53,979 nt of DNA. It comes from a virus. Its lineage: Duplodnaviria; Caudoviricetes. The position numbers and the translations under genes are program-made. The notes beneath the pieces were generated by a model. It did not search any database, was not told where the DNA came from, and worked only from the letters and a program-made list of their open reading frames with translations. The stretch is from the IMG/VR virus record IMGVR_UViG_3300032053_000102, positions 1-53,979 of that record; one strand, 5' to 3'. Positions 35,176 to 53,979 of the stretch are shown here, one piece after another (position 1 is the stretch's first letter; each line of letters begins with the position of its first letter).

Positions 35176-35701
35176 TATGGATGGTGTTTTGACTAATTTT
35201 CATTTAGCTGCTCTGCGTACTTTTAATGCAGAAAGGCTTCTTGAATCTTGGCCTATTGGTGAATGGTCGATTCCAAAGGTACTTGGTATATCAGAAGATG
35301 ATTTCTGGGGTGTAATTAATCAAGTTCCTGATTTCTGGTTTCGTATTGAACCATATCCTTGGTTGCATGAACTAATAGATTTGACCCAATCAATAGGTGA
35401 TTATACTATATCTACATCTCCTTCATTTGATCCTGATTGTGCGGCACAAAAAATTCGATGGTTACAAAAGCATATTGATACTAAATTTCATAATTATATG
35501 ATTGGTCATCAAAAGTATTTGATGGCGAATAAAAATACAGTATTGATTGATGATAATGAGAATAATGTAGAACAATTTCAATTAGCTGGTGGTCATAAGA
35601 TTTTATTTCCGATGCGAACTAATAAAAATTATTGGTTGATTGGTCAGAAATTCGAATATTTGAAACAAACACTGGAAAGGATTCACAAATGCTCGTTTTA
35701 A
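35159..35701 (+). CDS. HAD 5'(3')-deoxyribonucleotidase (NT5C-like)
   Basis: 'LLDMDGVL', 'TSP', 'K..WL', 'LIDDN'. Confidence 0.85.
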   Translation: MHILLDMDGVLTNFHLAALRTFNAERLLESWPIGEWSIPKVLGISEDDFWGVINQVPDFWFRIEPYPWLHELIDLTQSIGDYTISTSPSFDPDCAAQKIRWLQKHIDTKFHNYMIGHQKYLMANKNTVLIDDNENNVEQFQLAGGHKILFPMRTNKNYWLIGQKFEYLKQTLERIHKCSF

Positions 35702-35850
35702 CACGCAAAGAGAACCAAAAGATATACATCAATGGTGAAGAAATAGTTATAACTATTTGCAGGATAATATCAGATAAAGTTAGGATCGGAATTGATGCAC
35801 CTAAAAACATAACCATTGAACGCGAGGAACTCCGTGCAAGATCAAAATGA
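35689..35850 (+). CDS. csrA: carbon storage regulator CsrA/RsmA
   Basis: MLVLTRK...VRIGIDAPKNITIEREEL; true start ATG 35689. Confidence 0.92.
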   Translation: MLVLTRKENQKIYINGEEIVITICRIISDKVRIGIDAPKNITIEREELRARSK

Positions 35851-44814: not shown

Positions 44815-44903
44815 ACATTTTGCCGAGAGAAGATAGCGAGGAACCCTGGAATCAAATCATTTCTAGAAATCAACATGATTTCTACATCAAACACAGGAGA
44901 GCC

Positions 44904-45512
44904 ATGTATATAAAATGCGATGCTCGAATCGACTTCAAGCATCACAGATTACCGCCACCTATCACGGCTGATAGACTACAAGAATGTATGAAAAGGATCG
45001 AAGAATCAAAAGATGAGATCATTGAAGGTCATTTACGACTTGCCATGAATCTAGTATCGAAGTTTGCAAAGTGCAAGGAATCAAATGATTTAGTCGGTGT
45101 TGCTTTCCTAGCCTTAGTCGAAGCAGTTAATAGACTGAAGCCAAACATGAACGCCGGGGCATACATCAATAAGTCTATCACTTGGGCCTTACGGAAACAT
45201 AGGTTTGACAACCATGCACTTCATGCGTCAGTCAGTACATATTATCGGCATGGCCCAAAGAGTCGAGACGCAATATCAATACATCAAAATGAGTATGAGA
45301 TTGCGATAGTTGGGCGTGAGAGTGTTGGATATGAGTTATTTGACATCTTAGGGCATATCGCTGCTACGCCATTGGAAAAAGAGATACTAGAACTACGAAG
45401 TCTTGGATACTGTGATCGTGATGTTGCAACACAGTTAGGATACAGTACATCACGAATCGCACAGATAAGACAAATGTTGTATGCACGTTTCCTTTTGAAA
45501 TGGGATGTCTAA
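44904..45512 (+). CDS. sigma70-family RNA polymerase sigma factor (regions 2 and 4)
   Basis: 'HLRLAMNLVSKF..DLVGVAFLALVEAVNR..AYI'; C-terminal HTH 'DVATQLGYSTSRIAQI'; SD AGGAG before ATG 44904. Confidence 0.8.
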   Translation: MYIKCDARIDFKHHRLPPPITADRLQECMKRIEESKDEIIEGHLRLAMNLVSKFAKCKESNDLVGVAFLALVEAVNRLKPNMNAGAYINKSITWALRKHRFDNHALHASVSTYYRHGPKSRDAISIHQNEYEIAIVGRESVGYELFDILGHIAATPLEKEILELRSLGYCDRDVATQLGYSTSRIAQIRQMLYARFLLKWDV

Positions 45513-48121: not shown

Positions 48122-48287
48122 TAGATATGATTGCAGTTTGTGATCGTGACGACAATACAGGCTTTTGTAAAGCCTGTGGCAAAGAAGTATCAGGTGTAGA
48201 ACCTGATGCACGTAACTATGAATGTGATGCTTGCGGTAAGCATCAAGTGTTTGGGCTGCGGAACTTTTGATAGAAGGAGTTTCATAA
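48118..48287 (+). pseudogene. Zn-ribbon gene with a probable 1-nt deletion near the 3' end
   Basis: GFCKACG..GVEPDARNYECDACG..VFG then stop 48268-48270; adding one G at 48253-48255 gives FGAAELLIEGVS* coupled (TAATG) to the next gene. Confidence 0.55.
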
Positions 48288-48829
48288 TGCAAATGCAAAT
48301 TGAAGAGTTTGCTTGTTCTGAGATGGCTGATGCCACAGAAGAACAAAATCAAGAAGTTCTCGAATTAGTCGAAAAACTTGGATTGGATGGTCAATCCAAG
48401 TTGAAGACTGGAATCATGCCTTATCCTGAAGTGACAGGAGAGCAAAAGTTTGTTCTTGATGTCTTAACTCCAACTCGCGTAAACGTGAAGCAGTATTCCA
48501 GGACTGCTATCCCGCTTCGTGTTCTGCAAATTGCAGCACACGCAACTGAAATTGGATTTTTTGAGGAAATCCAAGTGTGGGACACAAAGGGTGTGGAGAA
48601 AGACCCCGTCCTTGTTGGTAAGAAAAGTTACACTTACTACTTACTAGCACGTTGGGGTGAACATCTTGACAACTGGACCATGATGGCCATGAAAGCGACT
48701 AAGATGGCAAAAATGGAAATGATCGGAAAGCTCAACACTTTACGTTCCGATCTTGATACCCGACTTGCACGTCTTGGTTCTGACACATTTTGTCAAGAGG
48801 ATTTGACTAAGACAGGGTTCTATGTGTAA
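48287..48829 (+). CDS. conserved hypothetical phage protein
   Basis: SD AAGGAG; 'IPLRVLQ', 'KDPVLVG', 'YLLARWG'. Confidence 0.65.
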   Translation: MQMQIEEFACSEMADATEEQNQEVLELVEKLGLDGQSKLKTGIMPYPEVTGEQKFVLDVLTPTRVNVKQYSRTAIPLRVLQIAAHATEIGFFEEIQVWDTKGVEKDPVLVGKKSYTYYLLARWGEHLDNWTMMAMKATKMAKMEMIGKLNTLRSDLDTRLARLGSDTFCQEDLTKTGFYV

Positions 48830-48838
48830 GAAGTGGTT

Positions 48839-48888
48839 TCCTTGGGATCACAAGGAGATCAAAGCAGGTTCGAGTCCCGCCCAAGGAA
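48839..48888 (+). ncRNA. armless tRNA-like element (acceptor stem + T-arm + one short hairpin)
   Basis: TCCTTGG/CCAAGGA 7-bp stem, discriminator A, T-arm GCAGG-TTCGAGT-CCCGC, inner GATC-ACAAGGA-GATC. Confidence 0.6.
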
Positions 48889-48890
48889 CT

Positions 48891-48968
48891 AGAGTATGTA
48901 GAATAGGTTTGACAATGGCCGAACACATATTTGGCATGGGGATGACAAATATGCTTTCTACATACTCT
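48891..48968 (+). ncRNA. candidate structured RNA, copy 1 (three-way junction)
   Basis: 13-bp closing stem AGAGTATGTAGAA/TTCTACATACTCT; inner hairpin CATATTTG/CAAATATG. Confidence 0.55.
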
Positions 48969-48974
48969 TTAATT

Positions 48975-49051
48975 ATATGTAGGATAGTGGACTGAAGACC
49001 ACGACAAGTAGTTTCTAAATTTTGCCTCCCTAGAGACTATTTCCTACATAT
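48975..49051 (+). ncRNA. candidate structured RNA, copy 2 (three-way junction)
   Basis: 10-bp closing stem ATATGTAGGA/TCCTACATAT; inner GTGG/CCAC and TAGTTTCTA/TAGAGACTA hairpins. Confidence 0.55.
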
Positions 49052-49054
49052 TAA

Positions 49055-49138
49055 GCCCAGGTGATGGAATTGGTATTCATATCGGATTTAAAATCCGAGG
49101 TCCATTTGGACATGCGGGTTCGAGTCCCGCCCTGGGTA
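49055..49138 (+). tRNA. tRNA-Leu(TAA), long variable arm, CCA not encoded
   Basis: GCCCAGG/CCTGGGT acceptor, TCGGA-TTTAAAA-TCCGA anticodon arm, GCGGG-TTCGAGT-CCCGC T-arm. Confidence 0.92.
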
Positions 49139-49151
49139 CTGAAAGGAAGGT

Positions 49152-49340
49152 ATGACAAACATAGTAAAATTTTTGATGGACAAAGGTATGAAACTAATTG
49201 ACATTGAATCATTTTTAGACGAAAAGGAGAACATTATGGGTCTTGAAGTTATGCAAGAAGCTATAAAATTAATGGAAGCAGAAGGTATGAAACCATCTAC
49301 ACTTTCTTTCATGGGCAAGAGTCAAGATATTAAATCCTGA
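49152..49340 (+). CDS. hypothetical protein
   Basis: ORF directly after the tRNA. Confidence 0.45.
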   Translation: MTNIVKFLMDKGMKLIDIESFLDEKENIMGLEVMQEAIKLMEAEGMKPSTLSFMGKSQDIKS

Positions 49341-49461
49341 TTATCATGGTAAATTGGGCAAAGTGCTTCATACGGAAATTAACATGTTTGGCCTTCCACT
49401 GGTTGTTGAGAAGGGTAGGGACATTTGTTTCTATCCCTCGGAATTAGCAGAGGAGAATTAA

Positions 49462-49668
49462 ATGAACAAAGCCAAGATGATTCGAGAAACATTCGATCAA
49501 CTTGGCTGGGATACAAAAACGAAAGATATTAAGGAAACACTAAAACAGAAAGGAGTTGACACTACATCCCAGCAAGTATCGAATATACGGGCAGAATGCA
49601 AGGTGATTACAATTAAAATAAACCGAAGAATGGAGGTACGAATCTATGCAACTAGGGATAATTTATAG
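49462..49668 (+). CDS. hypothetical, possible DNA-binding protein
   Basis: SD GAGGAG; basic and helical. Confidence 0.5.
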   Translation: MNKAKMIRETFDQLGWDTKTKDIKETLKQKGVDTTSQQVSNIRAECKVITIKINRRMEVRIYATRDNL

Positions 49669-49967
49669 TCAGCATGTGAAAATCCTGGACCCCCCATTTT
49701 GATCTAGAGATCAAGGATTCAGGTGGCAAGATGTGAAGATCACTTGTCCTATGTGTTTGAAAATCGGCAAAAATACCTTTAACGGAGGATTTGCTATATG
49801 AGCTTAAAAGAAAGCATCAAGTTACTATGGAGAAATGGTGGGATAATTAAATTCTTTTGTCCCTTGCAAAAGATAGATGGACAATGGATGATTATGCTGC
49901 CATATTTTCGGTGGTATAATGAAACTTGGCATTTTTCAATGAGGTCTATTAACAGGAGAAAATAGAT

Positions 49968-50882
49968 ATGAGAGAATTTGTAATGCTTGCAAAAGTGTAT
50001 GAAAATCAAGATGTCCGGGGCTGGTACATGAGTGAAAAGATGGATGGTATGCGTGCCTGGTGGGATGGGGGTATCACACGCGGACGTGATACACGCGAGA
50101 TACCTTGGGCAAATAATCAGAAATCAAGTGGAATATCTACGGGTCTCTGGTCTAGATATGGGAAGGTAATACATGCACCTTTTGAATGGGTGGATCAGTT
50201 GCCAAAGATACCACTAGATGGTGAACTCTGGCTGGGACGTGGTAATTTCCAAGAGACCATGAGTGTGTGCCGCCAAAAGGTGGGAGACGCAAGATGGAAG
50301 AGCGTGAAGTACAAGGTGTTTGATCTACCGTCATATGACGTTGTGTTTATGACGGGTGACATACGGAATCCAAATATAAGTATTAAGTTGGATACTTGCC
50401 TTGATTTCATTGGTAGGGACAAGATCAAGGCACCTTTGCCTTTTTATCTTGTTGTTGATATGTTTGGTAGTGTGACTTGGCCCGACAACTGTGAACCGGT
50501 GACTCAGTATAAGATTTCTGATGTTTCCGATCTAACTGATTACTTGGAAGTAGTGGTCAAACTAGGTGGTGAAGGTTTGATGATCAGACATCCTGGTTCT
50601 TATTGGGTGCCTTCACGTTCTCAGTTCCTACTCAAATACAAACCCTATATCGACGATATGGGATTGGTGGTCGGTTGGGAGCCTGGCAAGGGGAAATACG
50701 AAGGCATGGTAGGTTCCCTAGTGATAGAGTGGTGTGGTCGTCGATTCCAGCTCTCTGGATTCTCGGATCAAGAAAGAAAGATTGGACACTTTAAGATTGG
50801 CGAAAGAGTAGAGTTTCGCTATCGAGAATTATCTGATGGTGGACTACCCAAAGAAGCAAGGTATCAAAGGAGGGAAACATGA
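49968..50882 (+). CDS. ATP-dependent DNA ligase
   Basis: SEKMDG, LDGELW, VFD, EGLMIR, LLKYK, OB-fold tail. Confidence 0.92.
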   Translation: MREFVMLAKVYENQDVRGWYMSEKMDGMRAWWDGGITRGRDTREIPWANNQKSSGISTGLWSRYGKVIHAPFEWVDQLPKIPLDGELWLGRGNFQETMSVCRQKVGDARWKSVKYKVFDLPSYDVVFMTGDIRNPNISIKLDTCLDFIGRDKIKAPLPFYLVVDMFGSVTWPDNCEPVTQYKISDVSDLTDYLEVVVKLGGEGLMIRHPGSYWVPSRSQFLLKYKPYIDDMGLVVGWEPGKGKYEGMVGSLVIEWCGRRFQLSGFSDQERKIGHFKIGERVEFRYRELSDGGLPKEARYQRRET

Positions 50883-51325
50883 AATTAGTAAGTCTTACAG
50901 GTGTTTTGCTTTTTGAAGATGATTCTTCAACAATCCTGGAAACTTTGCATTTTGCAATGAAAGGAGGAGCCGACCTACAGGGAGCCGACCTACTGGAAAC
51001 TAACCTACTGGGAGCCAACCTACTGGGAGCCGACCTACGAGGAGCCAACCTACTGGAAACTAACCTACGAGGAGCCAAAGATGGTGATAAAGAAATCCTG
51101 AATATAATACAATGTTCAGGTATTGGAAGTAGAAGAAGAATGACAACTGCTGTGATCTTAAAGGATGAGATCAAAATATATTGTAGTTGTTTCACTGGGA
51201 GCATAACAGAGTTTGATGATCGGATCAAAGTAGTATATGCTAATAGTCCTAAGCATTTGATGGAATACCAAGCTACGATTGCTTGGATTCTAGCAAATGC
51301 TGAAATAGAAAGGAGGGAAGCATGA
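50879..51325 (+). CDS. pentapeptide-repeat protein
   Basis: About seven (A/T)(D/N)L repeats encoded by 15-nt tandem repeats at about 50966-51078. Confidence 0.85.
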   Translation: MKLVSLTGVLLFEDDSSTILETLHFAMKGGADLQGADLLETNLLGANLLGADLRGANLLETNLRGAKDGDKEILNIIQCSGIGSRRRMTTAVILKDEIKIYCSCFTGSITEFDDRIKVVYANSPKHLMEYQATIAWILANAEIERREA

Positions 51326-53705: not shown

Positions 53706-53836
53706 TAAATAATTGGGGTATTGTTGATCAACAATAAGGTGTACAATAAGGTGTAGTCAATTTGACTACAGGTGTATGATAAGGTGTAGTCAATTTGACT
53801 ACAGGTGTATGATAAGGTGTAGTCAATTTGACTACA
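53670..53836. repeat. four 19-bp palindromes TGTAGTCAAWTTGACTAYA, three at a 33-bp period
   Basis: Copies start at 53670, 53752, 53785 and 53818. Confidence 0.92.
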
Positions 53837-53863
53837 GTCTTAATACACCTGTAGTCAACAGGT

Positions 53864-53979
53864 TTCGTGCTTCGTGCTTTGTGCTTCGTGCTTCGTGCTT
53901 CGTGCTTCGTGCTTCGTGCTTCGTGCTTCGTGCTTCGTGCTTCGTGCTTCGTGCTTCGTGCTTCGTGCTTCGTGCTTCG
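53864..53979 (+). repeat. (TTCGTGC)n heptamer tandem array running off the window end
   Basis: About 16 copies, one variant TTTGTGC. Confidence 0.95.

What the first reader, a model, noticed from the sequence alone, without database searches (positions are those of the whole stretch)
48839..48891. Armless mini-tRNA carrying a GGA-loop hairpin in a CsrA-encoding phage
Seen: a 50-nt element with exact tRNA top-half geometry: 7-bp acceptor, discriminator A, then CTA, and a T-arm one base different from the neighbouring tRNA-Leu. The D, anticodon and variable arms are replaced by one hairpin, GATC-ACAAGGA-GATC. The 5' TCCTTG can pair with either CAAGGA copy (48851-56 or 48882-87), giving two exclusive folds that expose or hide a GGA loop. 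Known: CsrA binds ANGGA in hairpin loops, and RNase P, RNase Z and CCA enzymes recognise the acceptor plus T-arm. Inference: a tRNA-processed CsrA decoy/switch, a processing signal that releases the downstream RNAs, or a decoy for anticodon nucleases. A decayed tRNA is the null hypothesis.
Basis: partly seen in the sequence, partly recalled or inferred. Interest (0 to 1): 0.72.

Follow-up and report, generated by a model that had tools for sequence, protein, structure and literature searches.

The report
Truncated tRNA-Asn remnant in phage
A 50-base stretch in an uncultured sediment phage is what is left of an asparagine tRNA gene that has lost its anticodon, most likely an ordinary relic rather than a new kind of regulatory RNA.

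Summary
Window 48839-48888 has a perfect 7-bp acceptor stem, a canonical T-loop, discriminator A and no anticodon arm. It lies 167 nt upstream of the window's only real tRNA, Leu-TAA.

It is a tRNA derivative, but of tRNA-Asn, not of the neighbouring tRNA-Leu. All 54 of 54 cellular tRNAs fetched with this acceptor stem and T-loop are tRNA-Asn(GTT). The top half matches two of them at 30 of 32 bases, against 25 of 32 for tRNA-Leu. One internal deletion plus a few point changes would account for it: an A:C mismatch in the T-stem, G73 to A, and U8 to G.

In any precursor context an 11-bp hairpin (48834-48861) wins (pair probability about 0.99). The tRNA-like fold is at 0.01 or less.

The CsrA gene is real, but the motif ACARGGA is not enriched in the window. 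No relative close enough to test covariation could be fetched.

One hint points the other way. A 124-nt contig from another sediment run matches 48830-48890 without gaps, with 4 mismatches, while its flanks do not match.

Best reading: a relic (0.55). Main rival: a retained RNase P/Z-type processing site ahead of two strongly structured ~80-nt RNAs (0.25). The CsrA decoy reading gets about 0.04.

The parts
48206..48829 (+). Upstream ORF of unknown function. Its stop codon TAA is at 48827-48829.
   Evidence: ORF list. No Pfam or PHROG match. Eight homologues found, at 33-100% identity.
48834..48861 (+). Competing 11-bp hairpin, UGGUUUCCUUG / CAAGGAGAUCA, with loop GGAUCA. It uses the 5' acceptor strand.
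   Evidence: It is the MFE element in every precursor context. Pair probability is 0.97-1.0 (0.75-0.87 for the outermost pair). Energy is -15.1 kcal/mol.
48839..48845 (+). 5' strand of the acceptor stem, TCCTTGG.
   Evidence: Sequence. Identical to the 5' acceptor strand of 54 of 54 tRNA-Asn(GTT) genes fetched by pattern.
48846..48860 (+). Inner hairpin GATC-ACAAGGA-GATC. The bases GATCACAA align to positions 8-15 of a phage tRNA-Asn.
   Evidence: Sequence. MAFFT alignment against L044. Pair probability 0.18 in the isolated element and 0.0 in the precursor.
48864..48880 (+). T-arm GCAGG-TTCGAGT-CCCGC, with an A:C mismatch at 48866/48878.
   Evidence: Rfam alignment. 16 of 17 identical to the T-arms of tRNA-Asn in L052 and L076 and of the neighbouring tRNA-Leu.
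48881..48888 (+). 3' strand of the acceptor stem, CCAAGGA, plus discriminator A. No CCA is encoded; CTA follows.
   Evidence: Sequence. All 54 tRNA-Asn genes have discriminator G.
48891..48968 (+). Structured RNA 1: a 13-bp closing stem around two inner hairpins.
   Evidence: Fold of 48889-48972: -28.6 kcal/mol, z = -5.66, 0 of 200 shuffles fold as well. Perfect 13-nt inverted repeat (pair I3).
48975..49051 (+). Structured RNA 2. Same architecture as RNA 1 and shares the stem motif TATGTAGRATAG.
   Evidence: Fold of 48970-49054: -24.4 kcal/mol, z = -5.30, 0 of 200 shuffles fold as well. Repeats D5 and I7. The exact motif occurs only at these two places in the window.
49055..49139 (+). Bona fide tRNA-Leu(TAA), the only tRNA called in the window.
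   Evidence: ARAGORN. Rfam RF00005 at 55.9 bits.
35689..35850 (+). Phage CsrA homologue, 53 aa, 13 kb upstream of the element.
   Evidence: Pfam PF02599, 67.6 bits, E = 9.3e-19.

Best explanation
The element is the remnant of a tRNA-Asn(GUU) gene. It once belonged to a small phage tRNA/ncRNA cluster.

An internal deletion removed roughly positions 16 to the low 40s: most of the D-arm, the whole anticodon arm and part of the variable region. The first 15 bases, the T-arm and the 3' acceptor strand were left. A few point changes followed: T63 to C (giving the A:C mismatch), G73 to A, and U8 to G.

It cannot decode. It is probably transcribed as part of the long + strand transcript; no promoter-like site was found nearby. 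In that precursor it folds almost entirely into the 11-bp hairpin 48834-48861. The tRNA-like conformer is therefore rare, and any RNase P or RNase Z cut there would be incidental.

Shown: tRNA-Asn ancestry, absence of an anticodon arm, and dominance of the competing fold. Inferred: the deletion history, transcription and lack of a selected function.
For: 1. tRNA-Asn ancestry. All 54 of 54 genome loci matching TCCTTGG...GGTTCGAGTCC...CCAAGGA at full tRNA spacing are tRNA-Asn(GTT). The element's 5' acceptor strand plus its last 25 nt are 30 of 32 identical to the tRNA-Asn of L052 and L076, against 25 of 32 for the neighbouring tRNA-Leu. Of those 32 positions, 25 were fixed by the search pattern. 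Of the 7 free positions, 5 match.

2. One deletion is enough. MAFFT places the first 15 bases on positions 1-15 of a phage tRNA-Asn (L044) with 13 of 15 identical, then one gap.

3. Signs of decay. There is an A:C mismatch in the T-stem. The discriminator is A where 54 of 54 tRNA-Asn have G. The element scores below Rfam's gathering score, 15.5 against 29. ARAGORN does not call it in bacterial or default mitochondrial mode.

4. Folding. The acceptor pairs have probability 0.00-0.03 in every context that includes the 5' leader, against 0.97-1.0 for the inner ten pairs of the hairpin. The element's z-score is only -1.3 to -1.8.

5. Aberrant tRNA-like genes occur in other phage contigs. ARAGORN did not of 21 IMG/VR loci that share the acceptor core. 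One of them, L030, has the same TCCTTGG acceptor and an anticodon arm cut down to 4 bp plus 3 nt.

6. The region is plastic. Only 1 of 25 loci with a homologue of the upstream gene has a tRNA downstream of it. In most, the next ORF follows closely. In L002 and L010 a ligase-like ORF comes right after the gene; I recognised it by eye from its motif.
Against: 1. All 7 acceptor pairs, 4 of 5 T-stem pairs and the full T-loop consensus are intact.

2. In run X4, a 124-nt contig matches 48830-48890 without gaps and with 4 mismatches, while 27 and 36 nt on its two sides do not fit at 80% likeness (record 22). If it comes from a diverged relative, the truncated form is older than the split and better kept than its flanks. 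I could not see the contig's letters. Its depth is 2.5, and its mismatches were not listed in the table of differences.

3. An 11-bp hairpin lying exactly on the element is unlikely by chance. I estimate about 0.014. This rests on a mean of 13.45 stem registers per 54 kb in 20 Markov shuffles, against 36 registers (20 distinct hairpins) observed. The estimate is my own arithmetic and was made after seeing the hairpin.

4. The loop ACAAGGA matches the invariant ACA and GGA of the CsrA SELEX consensus, and the phage encodes a CsrA.

5. The element sits directly ahead of two RNAs that look selected for structure.

6. Once the leader is removed, the 50-mer closes its acceptor stem with probability about 1.0.
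Confidence: 0.55

Rival explanations
1. The element is a retained tRNA-like processing site.

The acceptor/T-arm minihelix would be kept so that RNase P cuts at 48838/48839 and a 3' tRNA-processing enzyme cuts after A48888. This would detach the upstream mRNA and define the 5' end of the structured RNAs at 48891-49051. Their 3' end would be set by RNase P cutting at the 5' end of tRNA-Leu.

The 11-bp hairpin would mask the site. A ribosome terminating at TAA 48827-29 could open it.
For: - The layout is ORF, then mini element, then two RNAs with z = -5.7 and -5.3, then tRNA-Leu. No promoter-like or terminator-like site was found on the + strand between 48000 and 49870.
- Both acceptor-stem strands and the T-loop are intact. 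Base -1 is U.
- Once the leader is removed, the acceptor stem closes with probability about 1.0.
- The X4 contig keeps 48830-48890 without gaps.
- RNase P is known to process non-tRNA substrates. These include phage M3 RNA, the P1/P7 C4 antisense RNA precursor and polycistronic mRNAs (PMC11143913, passages read).
- L030 has a similar layout: a reduced tRNA-Asn-like element, about 190 nt of spacer, then tRNA-Arg.
Against: - The tRNA-like fold has probability 0.03 or less in the precursor.
- The T-stem has a mismatch.
- No CCA is encoded.
- U-1 can pair with A73 and G48846 with C48880, giving a 9-bp helix. That could shift or blunt the cleavage.
- No homologue was found in which to test conservation.
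- tRNA-Leu alone already supplies an RNase P site.
Confidence: 0.25
2. The element is a CsrA decoy or switch. The ACAAGGA loop would bind the phage or host CsrA, and the two folds would expose or hide the GGA.
For: - The phage encodes a CsrA.
- The loop matches ACA-R-GGA, the invariant core of the SELEX consensus, which is preferred in hairpin loops (PMC4347634, passages read).
- A second CAAGGA lies 31 nt downstream.
Against: - ACARGGA is not enriched: 16 matches against 13.2 +/- 3.7 expected.
- Only 7 of the 12 consensus positions match.
- The displaying hairpin has probability 0.0-0.18.
- In each fold one of the two CAAGGA copies is buried in a helix.
- No CsrB- or Rsm-type family matches the window.
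- CACAA in this stretch is what a phage tRNA-Asn D-arm already carries (L044).
- The CsrA gene is 13 kb away.
Confidence: 0.04
3. The functional unit is the 11-bp hairpin 48834-48861, and the tRNA likeness is only its evolutionary raw material. The hairpin lies 5 nt after the stop codon. It could protect the 3' end of the upstream mRNA or serve as a double-strand RNase site.
For: - It is the dominant structure in every precursor context.
- Both of its non-Watson-Crick pairs are G:U on the + strand RNA.
- The block matched by the X4 contig starts at 48830, so it includes the leader strand.
Against: - Hairpins of this size are not rare: 20 distinct ones on the + strand of the window.
- No U-tract follows it, and the terminator scan did not pick it up.
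- There is no comparative support.
Confidence: 0.08
4. The element is a remnant of an attachment site, or a decoy for a factor that binds the acceptor end or elbow of tRNA, such as a tRNA-targeting defence nuclease.
For: - The T-arm plus 3' acceptor strand is the part of a tRNA gene that integrating phages typically carry. This is my recollection, not a result.
- A nuclease that cuts tRNA 3' tails has been reported (PMC12851939; I saw only the search listing and the start of the abstract).
Against: - No tyrosine or serine recombinase is found in the record, although it is only 57% complete.
- An att core would not need the 5' acceptor strand.
- None of the 54 cellular tRNA-Asn genes carries the element's exact 20-nt 3' segment.
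- With no anticodon loop it cannot be a decoy for anticodon nucleases.
- No CCA tail is encoded.
Confidence: 0.04

Closest known systems
tRNA-Asn(GUU) genes of bacteria and phages
   Same: The acceptor stem TCCTTGG/CCAAGGA and the T-loop GGTTCGAGTCC are identical. The top half is 30 of 32 identical to L052 and L076. Bases 1-15 are 13 of 15 identical to the phage tRNA-Asn of L044.
   Different: There is no anticodon arm and no canonical D-arm. The discriminator is A, not G. The T-stem has an A:C mismatch. The element is 50 nt long rather than 75-76.
Aberrant or truncated tRNA-like genes in phage contigs (here L030 and L028)
   Same: L030 has the same TCCTTGG/CCAAGGA acceptor followed by N-CTA. 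It lies after an ORF and about 190 nt upstream of a normal tRNA. ARAGORN does not call it. Its best matches are tRNA-Asn genes of cultured phages.
   Different: L030 keeps a D-arm and a 4-bp stub of the anticodon stem. Its phage showed no sign of being related and has no CsrA. No homologue of either element was found.
Non-tRNA substrates of bacterial RNase P (P1/P7 C4 antisense RNA precursor, phage M3 RNA, polycistronic mRNAs)
   Same: A phage-borne or operon-internal structure that mimics the acceptor/T-arm stack and could direct RNase P cleavage (PMC11143913, passages read).
   Different: Cleavage has not been tested here. The tRNA-like fold is a minor conformer. There is no sequence homology.
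tRNA-like plus hairpin units (TMERs) of murine gammaherpesvirus 68
   Same: A viral tRNA-like element followed by stem-loop RNAs that tRNase Z releases (PMC3534370, passage read). The layout here is the same: a tRNA-like element followed by two hairpin RNAs.
   Different: That system is eukaryotic, driven by RNA polymerase III, and yields microRNAs. Here the host is bacterial, nothing about processing is known, and the hairpins are Y-shaped RNAs of about 78 nt.
CsrB/RsmZ-type CsrA sponge RNAs
   Same: One ACA-R-GGA motif that could sit in a hairpin loop.
   Different: Sponge RNAs carry many GGA hairpins (my recollection). Here only one GGA can be exposed at a time, no Rfam family matches and the motif is not enriched.
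Armless mitochondrial tRNAs, and the tRNA-like domains of tmRNA and YrlA (all recalled, not tested against literature here)
   Same: Shortened tRNA shapes that keep the acceptor stem.
   Different: Armless mitochondrial tRNAs keep the anticodon arm and lose the D or T arms, which is the opposite of this element. ARAGORN finds no tmRNA and Rfam finds no YrlA or tmRNA match.

Membership tests
tRNA (Rfam RF00005, canonical cloverleaf) | 7-bp acceptor stem directly abutting a 5-bp T-stem with a T-loop | tested here: met
   7 of 7 acceptor pairs, 4 of 5 T-stem pairs and loop TTCGAGT.
tRNA (Rfam RF00005, canonical cloverleaf) | Anticodon arm: 5-bp stem and 7-nt loop with U33 | tested here: not met
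   Only 18 nt lie between the acceptor and the T-arm. The one hairpin has a 4-bp stem and C at the position of U33. The Rfam alignment skips the D and anticodon arms.
tRNA (Rfam RF00005, canonical cloverleaf) | Score at or above the family threshold, or detection by a tRNA finder | tested here: not met
   15.5 bits against a gathering score of 29. ARAGORN finds nothing in bacterial mode, even with lowered thresholds, or in default mitochondrial mode. Only the lowered-threshold mitochondrial mode gives a 74-nt call in a different register.
tRNA-Asn lineage (descent, not function) | Acceptor stem specific to this isotype | tested here: met
   54 of 54 genome tRNAs with this acceptor and T-loop are tRNA-Asn(GTT). 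The only full-size viral hit that begins with T is also Asn (L044).
tRNA-Asn lineage (descent, not function) | Discriminator G73 and anticodon GUU | tested here: not met
   The discriminator is A against G in 54 of 54. The anticodon is absent.
CsrA-binding sponge or decoy RNA | Several GGA motifs displayed in hairpin loops | tested here: not met
   There is one candidate loop, with pair probability 0.0-0.18. The second CAAGGA is in the acceptor helix. The motif is not enriched. No CsrB or Rsm family matches.
CsrA-binding sponge or decoy RNA | Binding by CsrA | not testable with these tools
   Needs a gel-shift assay with the protein encoded at 35689-35850.
RNase P substrate (tRNA-like processing site) | Coaxial acceptor/T stack of about 12 bp with a T-loop | tested here: inconclusive
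   The sequence allows 11 of 12 pairs. The fold is populated at 0.03 or less in the precursor and about 1.0 for the acceptor stem after the leader is removed.
RNase P substrate (tRNA-like processing site) | Cleavage at the 5' end of the acceptor stem | not testable with these tools
   No RNA run holding the stretch was listed. Needs an in vitro assay.
Phage attachment site in a tRNA gene | An integrase in the phage, and identity to the 3' end of a host tRNA | tested here: not met
   No PF00589 or PF00239 match in the 57%-complete record. The exact 20-nt 3' segment is absent from the 54 cellular tRNA-Asn loci.

The most novel reading that the evidence does not exclude
The element is a selected, anticodon-less mimic of tRNA-Asn.

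It would act as a maskable punctuation mark. When the 11-bp hairpin is opened, for instance by a ribosome terminating at the stop codon 5 nt upstream, the acceptor/T-arm minihelix forms. RNase P and a 3' tRNA-processing enzyme then cut. This releases two Y-shaped phage RNAs of about 78 nt from the mRNA.

That would be a bacterial-virus counterpart of the tRNA-like plus hairpin units of a herpesvirus, with translation-coupled control added.
Probability: 0.12. Interest if true: 0.7.

Novelty: new member of a known kind. Interest (0 to 1): 0.27.

Why it matters
If it is a relic, it matters little. It shows that phage tRNA clusters leave short remnants that tRNA finders miss, and that an isotype-specific acceptor stem can reveal their ancestry.

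If the element is kept by selection, it would be a compact tRNA-mimic processing signal in a phage. It would also draw attention to the two strongly structured RNAs next to it, which match no known family and are the more unusual objects at this locus.

Tried and rejected
**Searches for relatives**
- The upstream ORF as a single-protein query against IMG/VR gave nothing.
- The DNA ligase as a single-protein query against IMG/VR gave nothing.
- An alignment-based scan of IMG/VR gave 6 loci. All relatives were at or below 47% identity.
- I scanned 25 of these 26 loci for tRNAs, leaving out L009 because it is the same contig as L002. 23 have no tRNA. L020 has two tRNAs upstream of the gene. Only L013 has one downstream.
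- The closer homologues P0002 (72%), P0003 (67%) and P0004 (56%) are known only as proteins.

**Exact or gapped DNA patterns taken from the element**
- IMG/VR gave no match of mini size.
- GTDB genomes gave 0 matches at reduced spacing.
- A pattern taken from L030's element found only L030 itself.

**BLAST against cultured phages**
- The 701-nt query matched only over tRNA-Leu, in 19 records.
- The 66-nt query gave 15 records, none covering more than 32% of the query.

**Other attempts**
- A homologue search with the 57-aa ORF that overlaps the element found only the ORF itself. It is therefore probably not a gene and gives no view of relatives.
- Sequencing runs: 7 holders were listed and no RNA holder was listed.
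- Contigs of 4 runs were laid on the region. They are fragmentary, and no differences were listed inside 48830-48890.
- GATC is not avoided in the window, 219 sites against about 210 expected, so the GATC pair is unremarkable.
- The frame stays open for 20 codons after TAA, up to TAG at 48890-92. By my arithmetic the chance of that is about 0.38, so I give it no weight.
- CsrA was not found in the records of L030, L044 or L002. L013 and L020 are not held and were not searched.
- Literature searches for a phage-borne, anticodon-less or minihelix tRNA-like element listed no such description. I read listings and abstract starts only, apart from the passages cited elsewhere in this report.

Full report
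**What is there**

The window is one IMG/VR virus record of 53,979 bp, estimated 57% complete. Nearly all genes near the finding are on the + strand.

An ORF of unknown function ends with TAA at 48827-29. The next ORF, at 49152, has a good ribosome-binding site. Between them lie 322 nt of non-coding sequence.

The first element in that stretch is the one reported:
- TCCTTGG (48839-45) pairs perfectly with CCAAGGA (48881-87). A48888 follows, then CTA.
- The T-arm GCAGG-TTCGAGT-CCCGC (48864-80) abuts the 3' acceptor strand, as in a tRNA.
- The 18 nt in between are GATC-ACAAGGA-GATC-AAA.

The repeat finder shows the inverted repeat is 9 bp perfect, 48838-46 against 48880-88. It also reports a 27-nt direct repeat with the 3' end of the neighbouring tRNA-Leu at 85% identity.

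ARAGORN and Rfam, at its gathering scores, find only one tRNA in the window: Leu(TAA) at 49055-49139. In Rfam's permissive mode the tRNA model aligns 48839-48888 end to end through the acceptor and T-arm and skips the D and anticodon arms. The score is 15.5 bits against a gathering score of 29, with one T-stem pair flagged as non-standard.

The "one base different" in the T-arm is what creates an A:C mismatch.

**Where it came from**

I searched public collections for the acceptor core plus the T-loop.
- IMG/VR gave 21 loci, all at full tRNA spacing except one. ARAGORN of the 21 as ordinary tRNAs of several isotypes.
- With T as the first base, GTDB species genomes gave 0 matches at reduced spacing.
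- At full spacing they gave 54 loci. All 54 are tRNA-Asn(GTT), and all have discriminator G.

The element's 5' acceptor strand plus its last 25 nt are 30 of 32 identical to the tRNA-Asn of L052 and L076. The two differences are the T-to-C change that makes the A:C mismatch and G73-to-A. The neighbouring tRNA-Leu matches at 25 of 32. The pattern fixed 25 of those 32 positions, so the free evidence is 5 of 7 positions plus the isotype specificity of the acceptor stem.

MAFFT puts the element's first 15 bases on positions 1-15 of a phage tRNA-Asn (L044) with 13 of 15 identical, followed by a single long gap. A single internal deletion from the D-loop to about the variable region, plus three point changes, would therefore account for the element. 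The ten bases on the 3' side of the junction are not recognisably tRNA-Asn.

The GATC/GATC hairpin can also be read as a shifted D-arm. I could not decide between the two readings.

**Folding**

In isolation the 50-mer closes its acceptor stem with probability about 1.0. The inner hairpin and the T-arm reach only 0.15-0.19, and the fold is not unusual: z = -1.8, with 7 of 200 shuffles folding as well.

When the natural 5' leader is included, an 11-bp hairpin takes over. It runs from 48834 to 48861, pairing UGGUUUCCUUG with CAAGGAGAUCA.
- Hairpin pair probability is 0.97-1.0 for its inner ten pairs (0.75-0.87 for the outermost) against 0.00-0.03 for the acceptor stem, in contexts of 66, 81 and 451 nt.
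- Evaluated energies are -15.1 kcal/mol for the tRNA-like fold, -15.1 for the hairpin alone and -17.9 for the hairpin plus T-arm.

Hairpins this long are not rare. I counted 36 stem registers, or 20 distinct hairpins, on the + strand. Twenty Markov shuffles gave a mean of 13.45 registers. By my arithmetic, the chance that one lands on a given 50-nt element is about 0.014. That is suggestive, but the test was made after the fact.

**The CsrA idea**

The ORF at 35689-35850 is a CsrA (Pfam, 67.6 bits). The loop ACAAGGA matches the invariant ACA and GGA of the SELEX consensus RUACARGGAUGU, which is preferred in hairpin loops (PMC4347634, passages read).

Against the idea:
- ACARGGA occurs 16 times in the window, with 13.2 +/- 3.7 expected.
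- The displaying hairpin is hardly populated.
- Only one of the two CAAGGA copies is free in either fold.
- No Csr/Rsm RNA family matches.
- CACAA is already part of a phage tRNA-Asn D-arm.

With no anticodon loop, an anticodon-nuclease decoy is not tenable either.

**Comparative evidence, and its limits**

The upstream protein has eight homologues. Only relatives at or below 47% identity could be fetched: 6 viral and 20 metagenome loci.
- Of the 25 loci scanned, 23 have no tRNA, and only L013 has one downstream of the gene.
- In most loci the next ORF follows closely. In L002 and L010 a ligase-like ORF follows directly; I recognised it by eye.
- So 48830-49967 looks like a plastic insert.
- Four exact or gapped patterns from the element found no mini-sized homologue in IMG/VR.
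- BLAST against cultured phages found nothing beyond T-arm matches.

The one glimpse of a relative comes from laid contigs. Run X2 carries an identical copy spanning 48832-48983. Run X4 has a 124-nt contig at depth 2.5 that matches 48830-48890 without gaps and with 4 mismatches, while both of its flanks fail to fit at 80% likeness. If it is an orthologue from a diverged phage, the truncated form is shared and is better conserved than its surroundings. That counts against a pure relic. I could not see the contig's letters, and its differences were not listed, so I treat it as a lead only.

**A second example**

L030, from a phage with no evident relation to this one, carries the same TCCTTGG/CCAAGGA acceptor followed by G-CTA. 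It has a D-arm and an anticodon arm reduced to 4 bp plus a 3-nt loop. It sits after an ORF and about 190 nt upstream of tRNA-Arg(CCT).

Its best matches are tRNA-Asn genes of cultured phages. That phage has no CsrA, and the element has no homologue in IMG/VR.

Reduced forms of this tRNA-Asn class thus appeared in viral contigs (L030 and this window) and not in 185,579 species genomes. This fits either faster decay in phages or a phage-specific use.

**Neighbours**

Two RNAs lie between the element and tRNA-Leu, at 48891-48968 and 48975-49051. Each has a long closing stem (13 and 10 perfect base pairs) around two inner hairpins, and they share the stem motif TATGTAGRATAG.
- Their folds give z = -5.66 and -5.30, with 0 of 200 shuffles folding as well.
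- They match no Rfam family at a meaningful score.
- They have no further copy in the window.
- No promoter-like or terminator-like site lies on the + strand between 48000 and 49870, so the cluster is probably co-transcribed with the upstream genes.

This layout gives the processing-signal idea its plausibility. RNase P is known to cut phage M3 RNA, the P1/P7 C4 RNA precursor and polycistronic mRNAs (PMC11143913, passages read). A mouse herpesvirus releases hairpin RNAs from tRNA-like leaders with tRNase Z (PMC3534370, passage read).

**Verdict**

| Reading | Probability |
|---|---|
| Truncated tRNA-Asn gene, a relic with at most incidental processing | 0.55 |
| Retained RNase P/Z-type processing site for the adjacent structured RNAs | 0.25 |
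| The 11-bp hairpin is the functional unit | 0.08 |
| CsrA decoy or switch | 0.04 |
| Attachment-site remnant or other decoy | 0.04 |

The element is real and tRNA-derived. The headline interpretation gets no positive support.

It is a new member of a known kind (tRNA-derived remnants and tRNA-like elements in phage genomes), of modest interest unless the closer relatives show that it is conserved. I did not see any supplementary files of the cited papers, and none of my claims depends on them.

Noticed in passing
window 48891-48968 and 48975-49051 (+): Two adjacent Y-shaped RNAs of about 78 nt, with long closing stems (13 and 10 perfect base pairs) and the shared motif TATGTAGRATAG. Their folds give z = -5.66 and -5.30. 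They match no Rfam family, have no other copy in the window and have no match in cultured phages. They look more clearly selected for structure than the reported element.
   Followed up: partly
L030 2528-2598 (-): A reduced tRNA-Asn-like element with the same acceptor stem as the finding. It has a D-arm and an anticodon arm cut down to 4 bp plus a 3-nt loop. It lies about 190 nt upstream of tRNA-Arg(CCT), and ARAGORN does not call it.
   Followed up: partly
L028 130-207 (+): A 78-nt tRNA-like sequence ending in CCA. It has an Arg(TCT)-like anticodon arm, no evident D-arm and a long extra region. It lies next to tRNA-Ile(TAT), and ARAGORN does not call it.
   Followed up: no
L018 3649-3742 (+): A 94-nt sequence with a perfect 7-bp acceptor-like stem and a canonical T-arm (GTGGG-TTCAAAT-CCCGC). 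Neither ARAGORN nor Rfam's tRNA model calls it.
   Followed up: partly
L019 and L020, directly after the homologue of the upstream gene: A long tandem array of the 8-nt unit AACTAAGC fills the space between the gene and the next ORF.
   Followed up: no
window 53737-53979: Tandem repeats at the end of the record: a 33-nt unit in 3.1 copies and a 7-nt unit (TTCGTGC) in 16.6 copies, running off the end.
   Followed up: no
window 48830-48892 (+): The frame of the upstream ORF stays open for 20 codons after its TAA stop and ends at a TAG just past the element. This is probably chance.
   Followed up: partly
window 48830-49967 compared with L002 and L010: In two distant relatives a ligase-like ORF follows the homologue of the upstream gene directly. 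I recognised it by eye from its motif. In this window, 1.1 kb carrying the RNA cluster and small ORFs lies between that gene and the ligase.
   Followed up: partly
window 44820-45512 and 50879-51325 (+): A weak match to sigma-70 region 2, below Pfam's cut-off, and a pentapeptide-repeat protein flank the region.
   Followed up: no
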